Of a stretch of 32,252 nt of DNA, positions 19,629 through 25,255 are shown in pieces. Made by a program: the position numbers. The DNA comes from an uncultured Ignavibacteriales bacterium (GTDB taxonomy: Bacteria; Zixibacteria; MSB-5A5; GN15; FEB-12): NCBI GenBank assembly GCA_964464605.1, contig CAYXJN010000007.1:186001-218252 (forward strand). Reading direction: 5' to 3'. Every line of letters starts with the position of its first letter. The stretch's first letter is position 1.

Positions 19629-22600
19629 TTAGCTTTTGGCGATGACTGCGAAGATGTCTGACTCACGCATGATGAGCAGTTCCTGGCCGTCGATTGAAAC
19701 TTCCGTACCGGAATATTTGCCGTAAAGCACCCGGTCACCTTTTTTGACTTCGAGCGGCAGCTTTTTGCCGTCTTCAGAAATCTTGCCCGGGCCGACTTCG
19801 ATAATTTCACCCTGCATCGGTTTTTCTTTGGCGGTATCAGGGATAATGATTGACCCCTTTTTCGCTTCCATCTCTTCAACGGGACGAACAACGACTCGAT
19901 CCGCGAGTGGCTTAATGTTCATTGCTAAAGACCTCCATTTATTAAGTTAGCTTGTTAATCACTGCTGTTAGCACTCACAATTAATGACTGCTAATAGCAA
20001 TAACTTAGACATTTAACGATTTTTTGTCAAGAAGGTTCCAAAGGATATTGTGAAAAATTTCTTTTAATGGCAGAAGAAGAAGCAAGCAGTTTGTTCGTAA
20101 TGTATTGCCTTATAATATATTATTATAATTATTATGCGGACTGACAATATGGCATTAAATGACAGTTTTGAAAATAAAAAAACCGCTAACATGAATTAGC
20201 GGCTTTGATCGATTCTGTATGTGCCAGATTAATTCGTCGGCGTTTCGGTTGACGGCGGGACTTCGGACATCGCCGGTGGCATCGGGGCCGGGACTAAATT
20301 CGGTACTGCTGGCAGCGTTCTAATATAGGCAAAGATTGCTTTCAGGTCTTCATCGGTCATTTTCGCCATAGATTCCCAGGGCATCGGCGGAAGAATCATC
20401 CTGCCATCCGGGCTTCCCATATGCTTCCCGGTGTGCATGGCATCAAGAAAATTCTTTTCTGTCCACATGCCGATTCCATGCACGGAATCAGGAGTAAGAT
20501 TCGCGGCGAAGGAAATTCCCCATGGTCCTGCCCAGGCGGTCATATGCACATTACACAGCCCTACCCATCCGTTCATGTCCGGAACGCCAGCCGGCAACGC
20601 CGGTAGCACTGAATTCGCCGGATGACCGGAGAGGAGAATTGACTGATCGAGTGTCGGCATACCGTTTTCACCCATCCGTTTCGGGGTATGACAATCATTA
20701 CAACCACCGACGAGCACCAAGTACTCTCCCCGTTTCACCATTTCTTCTTGTGTGAGCGGCTGGCTGCCTTTCGGCGCGCAAGTAATTTGCACCAAGACAA
20801 CGCCGAATAACAAAAGCATAACAAATGCGGTAATAGTCGATTTTTTCAAGAGGCACTCTCCTTGCGTTTTCTGTTCATCCAATGGTTAAAAAACCTGCTT
20901 ACATCCAGAAATACGATACAGTAATACAGGAGTTTCATAGTATTGTTTTTTTGACGGGCTATCAATTTACTCTTTCGCCCCTGCCTGCTCCAATAGCCTG
21001 ATAATGTCACCCCTGTTCTTTTCTCTCGCTATCATCAAAGCCGTGATGCCGTCGAACTTACCGGTCATCTTAATAGTGACATCCGCTCCGGCATCCAAAA
21101 GCAACTGCACAATGTCAGTAGCCCCTTCATAAATGGCAAACATGAGCGGCGTTTGGTTATAGTCGGCAGTCTCATTGACATAGGCACCACGCTTAAGAAG
21201 CGATTTTACGACTGCACTCCGTTTTGCCCCGGCAGCATACATAAGCGGTGAGCGGGAAAAAACATCATCTTTTTGATTCGGATCAGCCCCTTTGGTCAGC
21301 AACATCTCTACGATATCGACATGACCGGCATACGAAGCTGCTATCAATGCGGTCACGCCAGTATCATTGTCAGCTGATAAATCAATACGGTTCTTAAGCA
21401 GCGTTTGTACTTTCTTCATATCCCCTTTTCCGGCTGCTTTAATCAATGCCTGCGCTTCCTCCGGAATCATGACAGTGCTGTCATAGTAGGACTTGCCGGC
21501 TTGCGCGCCGGTTTTTTTCAACAGCTCAATGACATCTTTATACTGGAAATCCTGAGCGATACTTAGGGCTGTTGCCCCGCTCATTTCGCCGATCATTGTA
21601 ATACTCGGGTCTGCACCTGCATCTAAGAGTATCTTAGCCAGATCTTTTGAGCCGACCGCCGCCGCCCACATGAGTGGAGTCTGCTTATAGGAACTGACCG
21701 CATTAACATCAGCGCCGTTTTTCAGCAGCACTTTCACGACATCCGGCTTATTTGCACCAACAGCATACATCAATGCCGTCATACTCAGATCCGTCGTGCG
21801 AAAATCGATTTTAGCACCTGCTTTGATCAGTTTTTCTACTGTCCCGGGATGACCGTTGACCGACGCTAACACCAGTGCGGTGAGCCCATCGTCATTACGG
21901 GCATTGATATTGAGTTCTTTTTTTTGACGCGGATTCGAGGGCGCCATTGTCACCCGAACGAGCAGCGTTGCGCATAATCGCTTCTGCCTCCTCGTTAATC
22001 GGATTACCGCCATCATCAACGGGTTCGGCAGGTATTGCAGCGGGTGCCTGCGCGGTAGTTGGCGGTGGTGTTGTTTCGACTGGGGCAGATTTCGCTACGA
22101 GCGAGCCTGCTTTCCCTCCCGCTTCACTGATCGCAGCAAGCGCTTCATCATATCCGCTGGTGCCGGCATAATTGTATGCCGTCATGCCTTGTTTATCTTC
22201 ATGGTTCGGATCGGCACCGGCAGTAAGTAACAGCCTGATAACATCCGCACGACCATACAACGAGGCAACGATAAGCGGCGTCATACCACCGGTATCCGGA
22301 AGGTTTGGATCTGCTTTTGCAGTAAGCAGTTCTTTGATAACTTCCATATGGCCGTTTGCAGATGCAAAATGCAAGGCAGTCCATCCGCCACGTGTTTGTA
22401 CGTTCACGTTCGCGCCTTTTGCCAAGAACAGGTTAACACAGGCTAACTGCCCAGTTAAGGCTGAAGTGATAAGCGGGGTACTGTTATCTGATGCCGGGCT
22501 ATCGACATTCTGTCCGAGCAGCAAACAGTAAAGTATGGCTGAAGTATCACCGATAGTAGCCGCGGGATAAAGCAGATTCGCTTTGTAGTTCAGAATTGCA

Positions 22601-25255
22601 CCGGTTGGATACGCAAGTGCATCGACAATCCCATAATAACCGGCCTGACTAGCATAGTCTGATGCACTCAGCCCGGCGATGTCCCGCAGACTTGGCTCAG
22701 CGCCATAATCCAAAAGAGCCGCGACAACATCCGAAAAGCCCTTTGACGCCGCGTATATCAGAGCAGTGGTGTTGTCCGGGCCGAGCCGGTTCGGATCGGC
22801 ACCCGCTTTGAGCAACAGCAAAACTGAGGATAAATCACCGGCAGCGGATGAATATATCAGCGTGGTAAATCCGTTAAATGCAGTCGCATTCGGGTTGGCT
22901 CCTAATGCCAATAACGCCTGCACCGCTTTTACCTTGCCAAATGCCGCTGCTTGTATGAGTACTGTTTCCCCGGAATCGTTTGTTTGCTCGATTTGGTAGC
23001 CGGCCTGGGCAAGCAGTTTTAATATCTCCCCATTTCCCCGTTGTGCCGCGTCAAACGCAGCCATTCCACCGAACATATTTTTCGCGTTCGGGTTCGCTCC
23101 AGCAGCCAGTAAAGCTTTGACCATCTGAGCATTGCTAATACGGGTAGCCAAGATAAGCGCATTATCCCCGGCGATGTTGGCTCCCTCCACATTGGCTCCG
23201 GCGGCCAAAAGAAATTTGACCGTGCGAAGATTATTGGTAGAAATAGCGACCATAAGTGGTGTTTCAGTGATATCATTCGCGGCGCTTGGATCCGCTCCTT
23301 TTTGCAAGAACTCGCGTAGTTTAGTCGTGTCACCACCGCTAAAGCGTATGGCGTCAAAAAACTCCTTTTTCGTATCCTGCGCAAAAGTCAGAATTGGAAA
23401 CAGAAAAATAATGAGCCCACTGAGTATTCGCTTTGTCATGCTATCCCTTCCTGCGTGTTAAAAAGCATCATGAACTGCGGTAAATTATAGGATGGGTTAC
23501 GCCGGTCAAGTGAGTTCTTAAGCAGGCGGAATCCGTCAGAAAATGACCGAAACAACTAATTCCCGGCGGGCATTTTCTTATTCTTCTTCAGGTATTTCAA
23601 GAAGGAGTCCATGCTTTGTGATTCGGCAAACTTGCGAATGCGACGGAACCCCTCGCCGTACAAAAAGTCCGTATCGGCTTCAGCCGATTGTCGAATATAC
23701 TCAGCCTCTTTTGAAGTGAAATCATTCATAACAAGCCATCCGATATAGCTGATACTACCGGTATGAAGCATCTGCTCTGCGTTCTTTTTGCCAAACCGAA
23801 ACAGCCAAAGACTCATCATGGACTGGGATAAAATGTACGCGGCTTCGGCTCTTGGAAGACCGTACAGCAAATACACGTCTACCTGCCGGTCGACCGGAAT
23901 AAGACCAAACACAACCCGGCTCTCTTTAAACGCAGCATATCCCTTGAAACGAAGGCTATTTGAGTTTCCGATTTCGGCCAACTCGCCTCGGTAGACCAGG
24001 TGGTTGTCGGCTGCATCGAATGGGACATCGATACCTTTGTTCAACAGCGATTGACGAATTTCCTGAACCAGTTGATTCATTTGTTCGAGGGTGGTGATTG
24101 CTGTTTTCCCGCAAAGTCCGCATATCCAGCGACCGTCGAAGTACATTTGGCCGCTATCAGAGGCGGCACAAACAAATCTCTGGCATGACACACATTCCGG
24201 CACGTGTCCGCGATGTGACAAATGATATTGATTTCCCCAGTAATCCGTGATGTATTGTCCTTCGATAATTTCACGACAGACCGTGCAGTGAAGCGCGACC
24301 TTATTGTTGTAGCAGGAATCATGGTAGCTCTTCCCTTCAAATGTAACATACCTGCTATCAATTATAGTACTGCATGCGGCACATCTGGGGCCAAAGAGTT
24401 CGAAATAACAGGTCTGGTCATAGTGTTTATCCTTCTCTTTAAAATACTTCTCACCCCCAATCGATTTGTCGCAATTGGCACAGCGAAAATGGGTGGCACA
24501 GTAATAGTTCCCGTCTACCTCAAAAAACCGAGTCGTCTGCACCGGTTTCTTGCAATAACCGCAGATTTTTTCAGCGGCTAAAAGCGTATCAACGGAAATG
24601 AGGCAGAAGACAGAAAGGAACAAAAGAAAAGATAATCGCCGTACGATGCGTGTAGTCACGACCTAACTCTAATTCTTTAACAGCGCAGTGTACTTAACAA
24701 TGACAGAACCGAGTTTTTGCACCTGTTCGTCGGTTTTCGGATCCTTTATTTTACCGTTTTCATCGAAAGCTTGATCGGCACGGGGGATCATCACTTGATT
24801 CGGCAAAACAATCAGACTGACCGCATTCAGCGTTTCGCGGAGCATAATCAATCCGCGCACGCCGCCGAACATCGTGCCGGATGCACTCATTATAACAGCC
24901 GGCTTGTGTAGGAAACTATCGTAACGAGGAACACCGGGAAGCGGGCGGGAAACCCAATCGATCATGTTTTTCAACACGCCGGGAATGCCGTAATTGTACT
25001 CTGGTGATGCGATCATGAAACCGCTATGCGAAAGAAAAATCTCCCGCAGCTTCTTTGCATTTTCCGGCCAGCCGTGAGCAGTTTCAAGGTCAGCGTCGTA
25101 AAGTGGGAGCGGATAGTCACGCAACTCGACAACCGTTACATCAGCGCCCGCGGCCCGCGCGCTATCCGCAGCGATACGAATCAGCTTACGATTAAAGGAT
25201 GCCTCTCGGGTACTCCCTGCGAATGCCACAATGCGCGGTCTTTCGGCCATGACTA

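What a model noticed while it worked through the whole genome (the two positions that open the first line are those of the whole stretch)
20967..24659. Secreted LIM + DA1-like peptidase homolog with a dead active site, beside ankyrin proteins
g02019 (367 aa) has a signal peptide, three to four LIM-type zinc fingers and a C-terminal DA1-like metallopeptidase domain, the domain order of plant DA1/DAR organ-size peptidases, but its HExxH motif reads SQSMMS; it lies next to two ankyrin-repeat genes, one with a signal peptide. I read it as a periplasmic or secreted pseudo-peptidase derived from a LIM-DA1 peptidase family that is a speciality of Zixibacteria order GN15, now acting as a substrate trap or inhibitor rather than an enzyme. 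It would show that the 'plant' LIM-peptidase architecture exists as an exported bacterial family and offer natural active and inactive pairs to study it.
Evidence so far: Pfam: LIM 8.8e-11 (two stretches), DA1-like 9.8e-07 at residues 312-357. Only 7 proteins including itself in the 5.8-billion-protein search, all LIM + DA1-like, best 58% identity; alignment: 6 of 6 relatives keep AHELxHxW and EGS/EGF, this protein has SQSMMSLW and TGS. Six-frame search of the order: 73 of 160 genomes have a match at E<=1e-5, best 39% identity; of the 11 fetched loci, 10 encode a 359-367 aa protein with an N-terminal hydrophobic signal, 3-4 CxxC..H/C fingers and intact HELMH; none of those has ankyrin genes within the 1.5-kb flanks. 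relatives.tsv: LIM in 49 of 159 genomes of the order against 374 of 189,784 Bacteria. A paper search (DA1-like, LIM domain, bacteria, peptidase) [...]
(Added by a program. Inside this text positions count along the whole contig: contig position 186,001 is position 1 of the stretch shown here. "Call 12" and the like, gene names such as g00115 and contig names such as C1 are that model's own, and its searches are not shown. The text may have been shortened before it was handed on; [...] marks where a part breaks off. The agent that wrote the report below was given it as the finding of a first reader that could run no searches.)

Follow-up and report, generated by a model that had tools for sequence, protein, structure and literature searches.

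The report
Exported LIM peptidase homolog, active site lost
An uncultured sludge bacterium keeps an intact, apparently exported copy of a LIM-plus-metallopeptidase protein (a relative of plant DA1) whose zinc-binding catalytic residues have all been replaced, so it probably binds proteins without cutting them; it is a modest curiosity within a bacterial family that is already known.

Summary
ORF 23556-24659(-) encodes 367 aa: a signal-like N-terminus, two LIM domains plus a fifth zinc knuckle, and a C-terminal DA1-like gluzincin domain. SQSMMS replaces AHExxH, and TG replaces the EG that carries the third zinc ligand.

- **Not decay.** The AF2 model is confident (pLDDT 95). The fold matches M1/thermolysin catalytic domains. 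Query-specific changes at conserved positions cluster at the catalytic centre. Outside it the protein evolves about as fast as its active siblings. The frame and the SQSMMS motif are the same in contigs from three studies.
- **Single copy.** The genome has no active paralogue to inhibit.
- **Family size.** The family is neither tiny nor special to one order. Exhaustive phmmer finds 1691 representatives. They occur in Zixibacteria, Latescibacterota, Krumholzibacteriia, Marinimicrobia, Chloroflexi, Cyanobacteria and others. NCBI already names bacterial members 'protein DA1', and a 2011 paper is cited for them.
- **Export.** Most relatives of this protein carry a signal-like N-terminus. The Chloroflexi-type clade that groups with plant DA1 does not. 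The genome has no detectable DsbA, DsbB or VKOR.
- **Ankyrin.** The 'two ankyrin genes' are one 823-aa exported ankyrin gene split at an A8 run, and a second strain has A7 and a fused frame. Ankyrin adjacency is not conserved (2 of 159 and 0 of 20 loci).

Function is inferred: a non-catalytic binder.

The parts
23556..24659 (-). ORF of the LIM + DA1-like pseudo-peptidase (367 aa plus stop; GTG start 9 nt after the stop of the FMN-reductase gene)
   Evidence: Its N-terminus aligns with P0002 and P0003 from residue 1.
24576..24659 (-). Residues 1-28: signal-like N-terminus (RR, a hydrophobic core, LLA|AEK)
   Evidence: Read from the sequence and scored with a hydrophobicity heuristic. Relatives show AxA-type sites followed by acidic residues. 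No signal-peptide predictor was available.
24102..24575 (-). Residues 29-186: two tandem LIM domains (C33..C84 and C93..H149) and a fifth CxxC...CxxC zinc knuckle (C156..C183)
   Evidence: Pfam LIM. Profile matches to solved LIM structures down to 1.7e-24. Foldseek and VIA LIM hits. Ligand pairs are listed, and all conserved Cys/His are kept.
23559..24101 (-). Residues 187-367: gluzincin-fold (DA1-like) domain without a metal site
   Evidence: VIA-align places residues 189-367 on M1 aminopeptidase catalytic domains: 1z1w_A Z 11.8, rmsd 2.7 A, 153 aligned. Family peptidase-domain HMM 4.3e-41.
23811..23828 (-). SQSMMS in place of AHExxH (H279Q, E280S, H283S)
   Evidence: The codons are CAG, TCC and AGT. 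No differing letter is listed here in the contigs of X10, X14 and X15.
23760..23762 (-). T300 (ACC) in place of the Glu that is the third zinc ligand (family E-G, 17 residues after the second His)
20967..23439 (-). One ankyrin-repeat gene with an N-terminal signal-like segment. It is split into 514-aa and 350-aa ORFs in this assembly and is a single 823-aa frame in another strain.
21918..21925 (-). A8 run (T8 on the + strand) where the ankyrin frame breaks. The contig of run X14 has one letter fewer here.
   Evidence: (table 4)

Best explanation
The gene encodes a Sec-exported, non-catalytic descendant of an exported bacterial LIM-gluzincin peptidase (the DA1-like family). The two LIM domains, the zinc knuckle and the peptidase fold are kept. 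The HExxH...E zinc and catalytic centre has been replaced by Ser, Gln and Thr, so the protein can no longer hold the catalytic zinc or activate water.

It has been kept by selection as a binding protein in the periplasm or at the cell surface. The likely binding surfaces are the LIM modules and the former substrate cleft. This resembles other dead metallopeptidase homologs that act as regulators or scaffolds.

Shown here: the homology, the fold, the loss of all four catalytic residues, the intact frame in several strains, and the single copy. Inferred: export, purifying selection, and a binding role. The partner or ligand is unknown.
For: **Catalytic residues.** Positions H279, E280, H283 and E300 are 100% conserved among 145 active relatives, and all four are changed in the query.

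**Rarity of the loss.**
- Of 151 other family proteins with letters at the motif, 148 keep HExxH.
- Of 74 copies in 72 other genomes of the order, 73 keep HExxH and one reads YELMH.
- Of 158 further loci with a peptidase-domain hit, 156 are intact and 2 are cut by contig ends.

**Focused change, not general decay.**
- Of 60 positions conserved at 70% or more, the query departs at 14 and its siblings at 5-6. The query-specific departures cluster at 278-283 and 300. All LIM Cys/His and YGEGFRR are kept.
- In a relative-rate count with P0008 as outgroup, the peptidase domain shows 25 query-unique against 16 sibling-unique changes. Seven of the 25 are active-site positions, which leaves 18 against 16.

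**Time since the loss.** The four catalytic codons (CAG, TCC, AGT, ACC) differ from any His/Glu/His/Glu codons at 9 or more of 12 bases. Under unconstrained substitution the 367-codon frame stays open in 0.9% of simulations at 0.1 substitutions per site and in 0 of 5000 at 0.2 or more.

**What real decay looks like in this family.** A second copy in G048 carries 7 stops in about 254 codons.

**Structure.** The AF2 model has pLDDT 95.2 and pTM 0.84. Residues 189-367 match M1, LTA4H and thermolysin catalytic domains at Z 8.8-11.8.

**Strains.** The frame is intact across the whole stretch in the contigs of X10 and X14. The SQSMMS motif is unchanged in contigs from three studies, X10, X14 and X15.

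**Export.**
- Signal-like N-termini are seen in 102 of 127 full-length members outside the Chloroflexi/plant clade.
- AxA sites followed by acidic residues are seen in the order's copies.
- DsbA, DsbB and VKOR were not found in the 100%-complete genome.
Against: - No biochemical data exist.
- No signal-peptide predictor was run. The residues after the predicted cleavage site of the query are slightly basic (AEKICGYCKK).
- Polymorphism gives no sign of constraint: 1 synonymous against 2 non-synonymous SNPs in the ORF. That is far too few to test.
- Against sibling P0003 the query is significantly faster overall (43 against 21, p=0.008), so some relaxation is possible.
- The family is absent from 66 of 107 genomes of the organism's own taxonomic family, so it is dispensable in kin.
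- No conserved neighbour points to a partner.
- The neighbouring ankyrin gene is frameshifted in this strain, which could mean that the whole region is under weak selection.
- The codon argument rests on four codons and a uniform substitution model without indels.
Confidence: 0.55

Rival explanations
1. Relic: the gene lost its activity and is now drifting without function. The open frame is luck or reflects a recent loss.
For: All catalytic residues are gone. There are more query-unique than sibling-unique changes: 39 against 26 and 43 against 21. SNPs are 1 synonymous against 2 non-synonymous. The family is patchy and clearly lost often in kin: 41 of 107 genomes in the same taxonomic family. 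Decayed copies exist elsewhere, in G048 and G060. The adjacent ankyrin gene is frameshifted in this strain.
Against: Changes are concentrated at the catalytic centre, while the LIM ligands and structural motifs are intact. Outside the active site the rate equals that of active siblings, 18 against 16. Nine or more of 12 bases are changed at the catalytic codons, yet there is no stop or indel in 367 codons. A neutral frame survives in under 1% of simulations at 0.1 substitutions per site. AF2 pLDDT is 95. The frame is the same in strains from different studies.
Confidence: 0.17
2. Two-gene module: the dead LIM-gluzincin works with the exported 823-aa ankyrin protein encoded 116 nt downstream, for example by LIM-ankyrin binding.
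For: The two genes are on the same strand, 116 nt apart. Both have signal-like N-termini. The genome has only three ankyrin-like frames, and two of them are the halves of this gene. LIM-ankyrin complexes have been solved: PINCH LIM1 with the ILK ankyrin domain appears among the fold hits as 3f6q and 3ixe.
Against: Adjacency is not a family trait. Ankyrin-like frames occur in 0 of 20 loci with +-8 kb and in 2 of 159 loci with +-3-5 kb, in both cases upstream with a gap of more than 1 kb. The ankyrin C-terminal half has no close ortholog in the order, best 35%. A TTGACC..TATAAT-like pair and a weak hairpin lie between the genes, so they may be transcribed apart. The ankyrin gene is broken in this strain while the LIM gene is not.
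Confidence: 0.1
3. Still an enzyme: the remodelled pocket (Ser/Gln/Ser/Thr) supports a different, metal-independent hydrolytic or other activity.
For: The replacements are all small polar residues rather than random ones, and the pocket helices are kept. A second, unrelated family member, P0031, also has polar replacements, KQMMQ.
Against: No His, Asp, Glu or Cys is left at the four positions. No known catalytic constellation is recognisable. No other Pfam or NCBIfam family matches.
Confidence: 0.05
4. Not exported: the N-terminal hydrophobic helix is a membrane anchor with the LIM and peptidase body in the cytoplasm, where zinc fingers are usual.
For: AF2 draws residues 2-26 as one helix. The flank after the helix carries three Lys. 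No predictor was run. Cytoplasmic members of the family exist, namely the Chloroflexi type and plants.
Against: The N-terminal flank has three Arg. Relatives show short h-regions ending in AxA followed by acidic residues, as in cleaved Sec signals. No Dsb oxidase system was detected, so exported Cys-zinc sites are feasible.
Confidence: 0.1

Closest known systems
Plant DA1/DAR peptidases (Arabidopsis DA1; Dong et al. 2017, PMC5322733, passages read)
   Same: The order of modules is the same: LIM, a LIM-like zinc module, then a C-terminal clan-MA zinc peptidase domain (Pfam DA1-like). The family motif HELMH-x16-E corresponds to DA1's HEMMH-x15-EE.
   Different: There are no UIMs and no ubiquitin activation. 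A signal-like N-terminus replaces a cytosolic location. The motif itself is lost in the query. In a midpoint-rooted tree the four plant sequences group with the signal-less Chloroflexi-type bacterial proteins, not with the query's exported subfamily.
Bacterial 'protein DA1' / LIM-peptidase proteins. NCBI uses this name for Anaerolineae, Chloroflexia, Ktedonobacteraceae, Tengunoibacter, Chroococcales and Armatimonadota. Dong 2017 cites Burroughs, Iyer & Aravind 2011 for Roseiflexus relatives. That paper was not held, so its content is recalled only.
   Same: LIM + DA1-like architecture in bacteria, with lengths of about 300-400 aa.
   Different: Those members keep HExxH...E. The Chloroflexi-type ones start directly with the first LIM cysteine and have no signal.
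Exported LIM-DA1 subfamily (closest: P0002 58%, P0003 55%, P0008 47% identity; copies in 72 other genomes of the order)
   Same: Signal-like N-terminus, two LIM domains plus a knuckle, the same length, and the YGEGFRR motif. The query branches inside this group as sister of P0002+P0003 (support 0.97).
   Different: All of these keep the catalytic site. Only the query has lost all four residues.
M1 aminopeptidase / thermolysin-type gluzincin catalytic domain, including TAF2, an M1-like subunit of TFIID (6hqa_A Z 9.2, 5fur_I Z 8.0)
   Same: The fold of residues 189-367: 1z1w_A Z 11.8 with rmsd 2.7 A over 153 residues, 8sw0_A Z 11.5, and thermolysin 4m65_A Z 8.9. That TAF2 is a non-catalytic M1-like scaffold is recalled, not tested here.
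   Different: Sequence identity is 5-13%. There is no N-terminal or C-terminal M1 domain and no GxMEN motif. Z values of 8-12 show a shared fold, not a shared function.
EnvC / NlpD: periplasmic LytM (M23) homologs without zinc ligands that activate cell-wall amidases (recalled, not from a call)
   Same: The concept is the same: an exported metallopeptidase homolog that has lost its metal ligands and works by binding.
   Different: They have an unrelated fold and family. No amidase or other partner is indicated here.
PINCH LIM1 with the ILK ankyrin-repeat domain (3f6q_B, 3ixe_B among the fold hits)
   Same: A LIM domain binding an ankyrin-repeat domain. This is a precedent for the module rival.
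   Different: These are eukaryotic cytosolic proteins. No evidence of binding was obtained here.

Membership tests
DA1-like LIM peptidase family (Pfam PF00412 + PF12315) | One or more LIM domains N-terminal to the peptidase domain | tested here: met
   Pfam LIM 8.9e-11. The family profile matches solved LIM domains down to 1.7e-24. Foldseek LIM hits at prob 1.00.
DA1-like LIM peptidase family (Pfam PF00412 + PF12315) | DA1-like domain above the curated threshold | tested here: met
   28.7 bits against a cut-off of 25, but only on profile positions 166-211 of 213. The genome-wide Pfam scan did not pick it up. The family HMM built here scores 396 bits full length and 140.7 bits for the peptidase domain.
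DA1-like LIM peptidase family (Pfam PF00412 + PF12315) | HExxH plus a downstream Glu (zinc ligands and the catalytic base) | tested here: not met
   SQSMMS and TG stand at columns that are 100% H, E, H, E in 145 active relatives. It is therefore a homolog by descent but not a peptidase of this family in the functional sense.
DA1-like LIM peptidase family (Pfam PF00412 + PF12315) | Gluzincin (thermolysin-like) fold of the C-terminal domain | tested here: met
   AF2 pLDDT 95.2. VIA-align Z 11.8, 11.6 and 11.5 to M1 catalytic domains over about 150 residues at rmsd 2.7-2.8 A.
Plant DA1 proper | UIM motifs and ubiquitin-dependent activation | tested here: not met
   There is no UIM hit in Pfam. 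The N-terminus is a hydrophobic signal-like segment instead. Activation is not testable here.
Sec-exported protein | Cleavable N-terminal signal peptide (n-region, h-region, AxA site) | tested here: inconclusive
   By eye and a Kyte-Doolittle heuristic only: maximum 12-residue hydrophobicity 2.88. 102 of 127 subfamily members are signal-like. AxA sites are seen in relatives. No dedicated predictor was available.
Pseudoenzyme (dead homolog kept by selection) | Catalytic residues lost while the fold and frame are kept under constraint | tested here: met
   Loss. Fold. Focused pattern of change and equal rate outside the site. Open frame against the neutral expectation. Same frame in several strains. 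Direct dN/dS was not possible, because only 3 SNPs were found and no DNA of close relatives was available.
Pseudoenzyme (dead homolog kept by selection) | Absence of catalytic activity | not testable with these tools
   This needs purified protein.
Ankyrin-repeat proteins (the neighbouring gene) | Tandem ANK repeats | tested here: met
   Ank_2 4.1e-62 and 2.7e-60 for the two halves. The NCBIfam matches to Legionella Ank effectors are all far below their cut-offs and are generic repeat similarity.

The most novel reading that the evidence does not exclude
The dead LIM-gluzincin and the 823-aa exported ankyrin protein form a dedicated pair of 'eukaryote-like' interaction modules outside the cytoplasm, with LIM gripping ANK as in PINCH-ILK. 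The A8 tract in the ankyrin gene switches the pair between a full-length and a truncated form in the population. The pseudo-peptidase would then be a periplasmic or surface adaptor and not a leftover.
Probability: 0.08. Interest if true: 0.6.

Novelty: new variant of a known kind. Interest (0 to 1): 0.35.

Why it matters
Bacterial LIM + DA1-like peptidases are known only from sequence, and nobody has shown what they do. This work adds three points.

- **Two forms.** The family splits into a signal-less form (Chloroflexi type, the one nearest plant DA1) and a large signal-bearing form. The signal-bearing form is common in Zixibacteria, Latescibacterota, Krumholzibacteriia, Marinimicrobia and others.
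- **Exported zinc fingers.** The exported form puts about five Cys/His zinc sites outside the cytoplasm, in an organism where no Dsb or VKOR oxidase was detected.
- **Rare dead members.** Very few members have lost the catalytic centre while keeping everything else. Those seen are this protein, P0031 with KQMMQ and P0045 with HKWMH, plus P0109 and the G028 copy, which each lack one zinc ligand.

These natural active/dead pairs across species could help separate binding from cleavage once a substrate is found. A cultured carrier exists for a start, Parendozoicomonas callyspongiae (locus L121). The result does not change what is known about DA1 in plants.

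Tried and rejected
- **Complex prediction.** Complex prediction of ankyrin residues 22-445 with the mature LIM protein gave no verdict (score 0.00, mark 0.32). This is not evidence either way.
- **RNA.** No RNA holder was listed among the sequencing runs, so nothing can be said on expression.
- **Burroughs et al. 2011 (PMC5938088).** It is not held. PMC3417536 has no 'LIM' passage, and PMC4506424 mentions it only in a reviewer comment.
- **Paper searches.**
  - 'Zixibacteria' + 'LIM domain': 0 papers.
  - 'PF12315': 4 papers, all on plants.
  - 'DA1-like' + 'LIM domain' + bacteria + peptidase: 1 plant NLR paper.
  - So no paper on an exported or dead bacterial member was found in this library.
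- **Solved structures.** The family profile matched 132 PDB chains at E<=1. All 60 rows shown are LIM domains, so no DA1-like peptidase structure was seen among them. Foldseek on the whole model returned almost only LIM domains. The peptidase fold came only from VIA-align.
- **Neighbourhood.**
  - No gene cluster is shared beyond genus-level synteny in 20 loci.
  - Recurring neighbours are unrelated housekeeping genes: MscS, nitroreductase, DprA, a methyltransferase and NMO.
  - Orthologs of the cytochrome c gene in 11 relatives have none of the window's other genes within 1.5 kb. An 'insertion' could therefore not be tested.
- **Closer relatives.** The metagenome scan found nothing closer than 38% identity.
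- **Promoter and terminator scans.** They are at shuffle level: 13 found against 10.3 expected, and 11 against 8.7.
- **Pfam DA1-like on the genome.** It rang nowhere, controls included, so it was replaced by a family HMM built here.
- **Tat export.** Considered and rejected, because the twin arginine is not conserved among relatives.

Full report
**What is there.** On the minus strand the window carries this run of genes (Pfam):
- enolase (25253-26557);
- an NADPH-dependent FMN reductase (24669-25250);
- the 367-aa ORF in question (23556-24659, GTG start 9 nt after the reductase stop);
- two overlapping ankyrin ORFs (21895-23439 and 20967-22019);
- a c-type cytochrome (20229-20882);
- groES/groEL.

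The 367-aa protein hits Pfam LIM (8.9e-11) and DA1-like. The DA1-like hit is 1e-6, at 28.7 bits against a cut-off of 25, and covers only the last 46 residues on profile positions 166-211. NCBIfam has no model for it.

The sequence shows nine CxxC/H-type pairs. They make two LIM domains (C33..C84 and C93..H149) and a fifth CxxC...CxxC knuckle (C156..C183).

**The active site is gone.** Aligned with its six word-index relatives, the protein reads SQSMMS where they read (A/V)HELxH. It reads TGS where they read EGS or EGA.

The family is far larger than those seven proteins. An exhaustive phmmer search of 1.84 billion representatives gives 1691 hits at E<=1e-3 and 157 at E<=1e-30. Three censuses show how rare the loss is.
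- Of the 151 other proteins that have letters at the motif columns, 148 keep HExxH. The exceptions are P0031 (KQMMQ), P0045 (HKWMH) and a fragment, P0096. P0109 keeps HELMH but has TG for EG.
I read 74 copies in the 72 other genomes. Of these, 73 keep HExxH and one reads YELMH (G028).
- Of 159 further loci from named genomes and metagenomes, 158 have the domain. 156 are intact and 2 are cut off by contig ends.

The family motif HELMH-x16-E matches the HEMMH-x15-EE that Dong et al. describe for Arabidopsis DA1. There, mutation of the two histidines abolishes cleavage (PMC5322733, passages read).

**Not a decaying gene.** Six lines of evidence bear on this.
1. An AlphaFold2 model built on 149 aligned relatives has mean pLDDT 95.2 and pTM 0.84.
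2. Residues 189-367 superpose on the catalytic domains of M1 aminopeptidases. The best is 1z1w_A at Z 11.8, rmsd 2.7 A over 153 residues. Others are 8sw0_A at Z 11.5, LTA4H, and thermolysin at Z 8.9. The LIM part matches PINCH, LMO and paxillin.
3. Of 60 alignment positions that are at least 70% conserved in 145 active relatives, the query departs at 14 and its three closest relatives at 5-6. The query-specific departures cluster at 278-283 and 300. Every conserved LIM ligand and the YGEGFRR motif are kept.
4. In the tree the query is sister to P0002+P0003, with P0008 outside (supports 0.97 and 1.0). A relative-rate count with P0008 as outgroup gives 39 against 26 (P0002, p=0.14) and 43 against 21 (P0003, p=0.008). 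In the peptidase domain the count is 25 against 16, and seven of the 25 are the active-site positions. The acceleration is therefore mild and mostly local.
5. The four catalytic codons are CAG, TCC, AGT and ACC. They differ at nine or more of twelve bases from any His/Glu/His/Glu set. In a simple neutral simulation the 367-codon frame stays open in 7.6% of runs at 0.05 substitutions per site, in 0.9% at 0.1, and in none of 5000 at 0.2 or more. Either the loss is old and the rest was kept by selection, or the site was remodelled by selection. This argument rests on four codons and a crude model. A truly decayed copy of the family exists for comparison, in G048 with seven stops.
6. The stretch is held by runs of seven studies. 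Contigs of four runs were laid on it.
   - X10 and X14 cover the whole stretch, and neither shows a stop or indel in this ORF.
   - X15 covers the SQSMMS motif but not T300, and X19 has no cover at the motif.
   - The motif is therefore confirmed in three studies, X10, X14 and X15, and one of them may be the source of the window.
   - The ORF carries three SNPs: A242A, H79Y and F214Y, the last from a low-depth contig. One synonymous against two non-synonymous changes gives no power, and I count it as neutral to slightly adverse evidence.

**Single copy.** A protein search and a family HMM run over all six frames of the 2.8-Mb genome (100% complete by marker estimate) find only this copy. An 'inhibitor of an active paralogue' is therefore not supported.

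**Export.** The N-terminus (MTTRIVRRLSFLLFLSVFCLISVDTLLA|AEK) looks like a Sec signal. Relatives show the same build, with AxA-type sites followed by acidic residues.

With a hydrophobicity heuristic, 102 of 127 full-length members outside one clade are signal-like. Only 2 of 44 are signal-like inside that clade. That clade holds the Chloroflexia, Anaerolineae and Ktedonobacteria proteins and the four plant DA1/DAR sequences. The support is 0.96 for the inner 26-leaf group, and the tree is midpoint-rooted, so no direction of transfer can be claimed.

That worry is weakened, because DsbB, DsbA and VKOR were not found in the genome while the controls rang. No signal-peptide predictor was available, so export remains an inference.

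**How known is the family?** Dong et al. already point to bacterial (Roseiflexus) relatives of the DA1 LIM-like region and cite Burroughs, Iyer & Aravind 2011. That paper was not held. From recall only, it describes prokaryotic LIM domains as partners of membrane-associated peptidases.

NCBI names bacterial members 'protein DA1'. The ESM Atlas has bacterial clusters auto-named 'Protein DA1/LIM domain-containing protein'.

Named genome records place members in Zixibacteria, Latescibacterota, Krumholzibacteriia, Marinimicrobia and Ignavibacteria/Melioribacteraceae. Members also occur in Spirochaetes, Ktedonobacteria, Anaerolineae, Cyanobacteria, Lentisphaeria and Acidobacteriota. One cultured isolate, Parendozoicomonas callyspongiae, carries a member.

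Within the phylum, 101 of 285 genomes match, patchily by family: f1 41/107, f4 26/33, f16 10/10, f17 14/14, and several families 0. So it is not a speciality of one order.

Searches of the paper library found nothing on an exported or dead bacterial member.

**The ankyrin neighbour.** The two ankyrin ORFs overlap by 125 nt around an A8 run (T8 at 21918-21925 on the + strand). Read across the run with one A fewer, the sequence gives a seamless ankyrin repeat.

The contig of run X14 comes from a different strain, with 10 SNPs in 3.8 kb at depth 18.6. It has exactly one letter fewer there (table 4), which gives a single 823-aa frame. Its other changes fit that reading:
- a stop in the N-terminal extension of the 350-aa frame;
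- loss of the 514-aa ORF's stop codon;
- a synonymous change in the downstream frame.

X10 keeps A8 but may be the window's own source. So this is one exported ankyrin gene that is split in this strain, by a real frameshift, by phase variation or by an assembly error. Raw reads would tell which.

**Is the ankyrin gene linked to the pseudo-peptidase?**
- Ankyrin-like frames lie near the LIM gene in 0 of 20 loci with +-8 kb.
- They lie near it in 2 of 159 loci with +-3-5 kb (L082 and L223, both upstream with a gap).
- The ankyrin C-terminal half has no close ortholog in the order, best 35%.
- On the other side, the genome has only three ankyrin-like frames, and two of them are this gene.
- Solved LIM-ankyrin complexes exist (3f6q and 3ixe).

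I keep a link as a low-probability rival.

**Context.** Neighbourhoods of the family are not conserved beyond genus level, and the recurring neighbours are unrelated housekeeping genes. The family looks like a stand-alone gene, so context gives no clue to a substrate.

**Verdict.**
This is a rare, intact, probably exported pseudo-peptidase of a known bacterial LIM + DA1-like family.
- The family is widespread rather than order-specific.
- There is no active partner in the genome.
- The 'two ankyrin genes' are one split gene, and its adjacency is not conserved.
- The binding-only role is inferred, not shown.

Noticed in passing
window 20967-23439 (-), run at 21918-21925: The two ankyrin ORFs are one gene broken at an A8 run. 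A contig of another strain (run X14) has A7 and a single 823-aa frame with an N-terminal signal-like segment. X10 keeps A8. This may be phase variation, a strain-specific frameshift or an assembly error.
   Followed up: partly
G048:C7:2285-3046 (-), and G060:C72:13619-14822: There are decayed or frameshifted extra copies of the LIM-DA1 family. The G048 second copy has 2 TGA + 5 TAA within the match. The G060 copy is spread over three frames with one TAG.
   Followed up: no
L155 (G028:C96:44-2398): One copy in the order reads YELMH instead of HELMH. The first zinc ligand is lost and the rest is intact. The genome is only 58% complete.
   Followed up: no
proteins P0031, P0045, P0109: Other family members have damaged sites: KQMMQ (EG kept), HKWMH (catalytic Glu lost), and HELMH with TG for EG in a 541-aa protein. 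They are distant from the query (about 25-31% identity), so these are independent losses.
   Followed up: partly
tree; proteins P0201, P0207, P0209, P0210, P0195: Plant DA1/DAR sequences group with the signal-less bacterial proteins named Chloroflexia and Anaerolineae (26-leaf clade, support 0.96, midpoint root). They do not group with the exported subfamily.
   Followed up: partly
whole genome G000: DsbA, DsbB and VKOR were not found in a genome rated 100% complete. This suggests there is no canonical disulfide-forming system in the cell envelope.
   Followed up: partly
L121 (NZ_JAMFLX010000004.1, Parendozoicomonas callyspongiae): A cultured gammaproteobacterial isolate carries a family member (25% identity, E 8e-32). 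It is a possible experimental entry point. Tengunoibacter tsumagoiensis carries the signal-less type.
   Followed up: no
window 20179-20206 (-): The strongest terminator-like hairpin of the region (12 pairs, followed by a T run) lies just after the cytochrome c gene. This would fit one transcript from enolase to cytochrome c, but the scans are at shuffle level.
   Followed up: no
window 8001-9000: G+C dips to 0.385 against 0.43-0.54 elsewhere in the window.
   Followed up: no
L082 (G113:C15) and L223: These are the only two of 159 loci with an ankyrin-like frame near the LIM-DA1 gene. In both it lies upstream on the same strand with a gap of more than 1 kb, and the two may belong to one lineage.
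   Followed up: no
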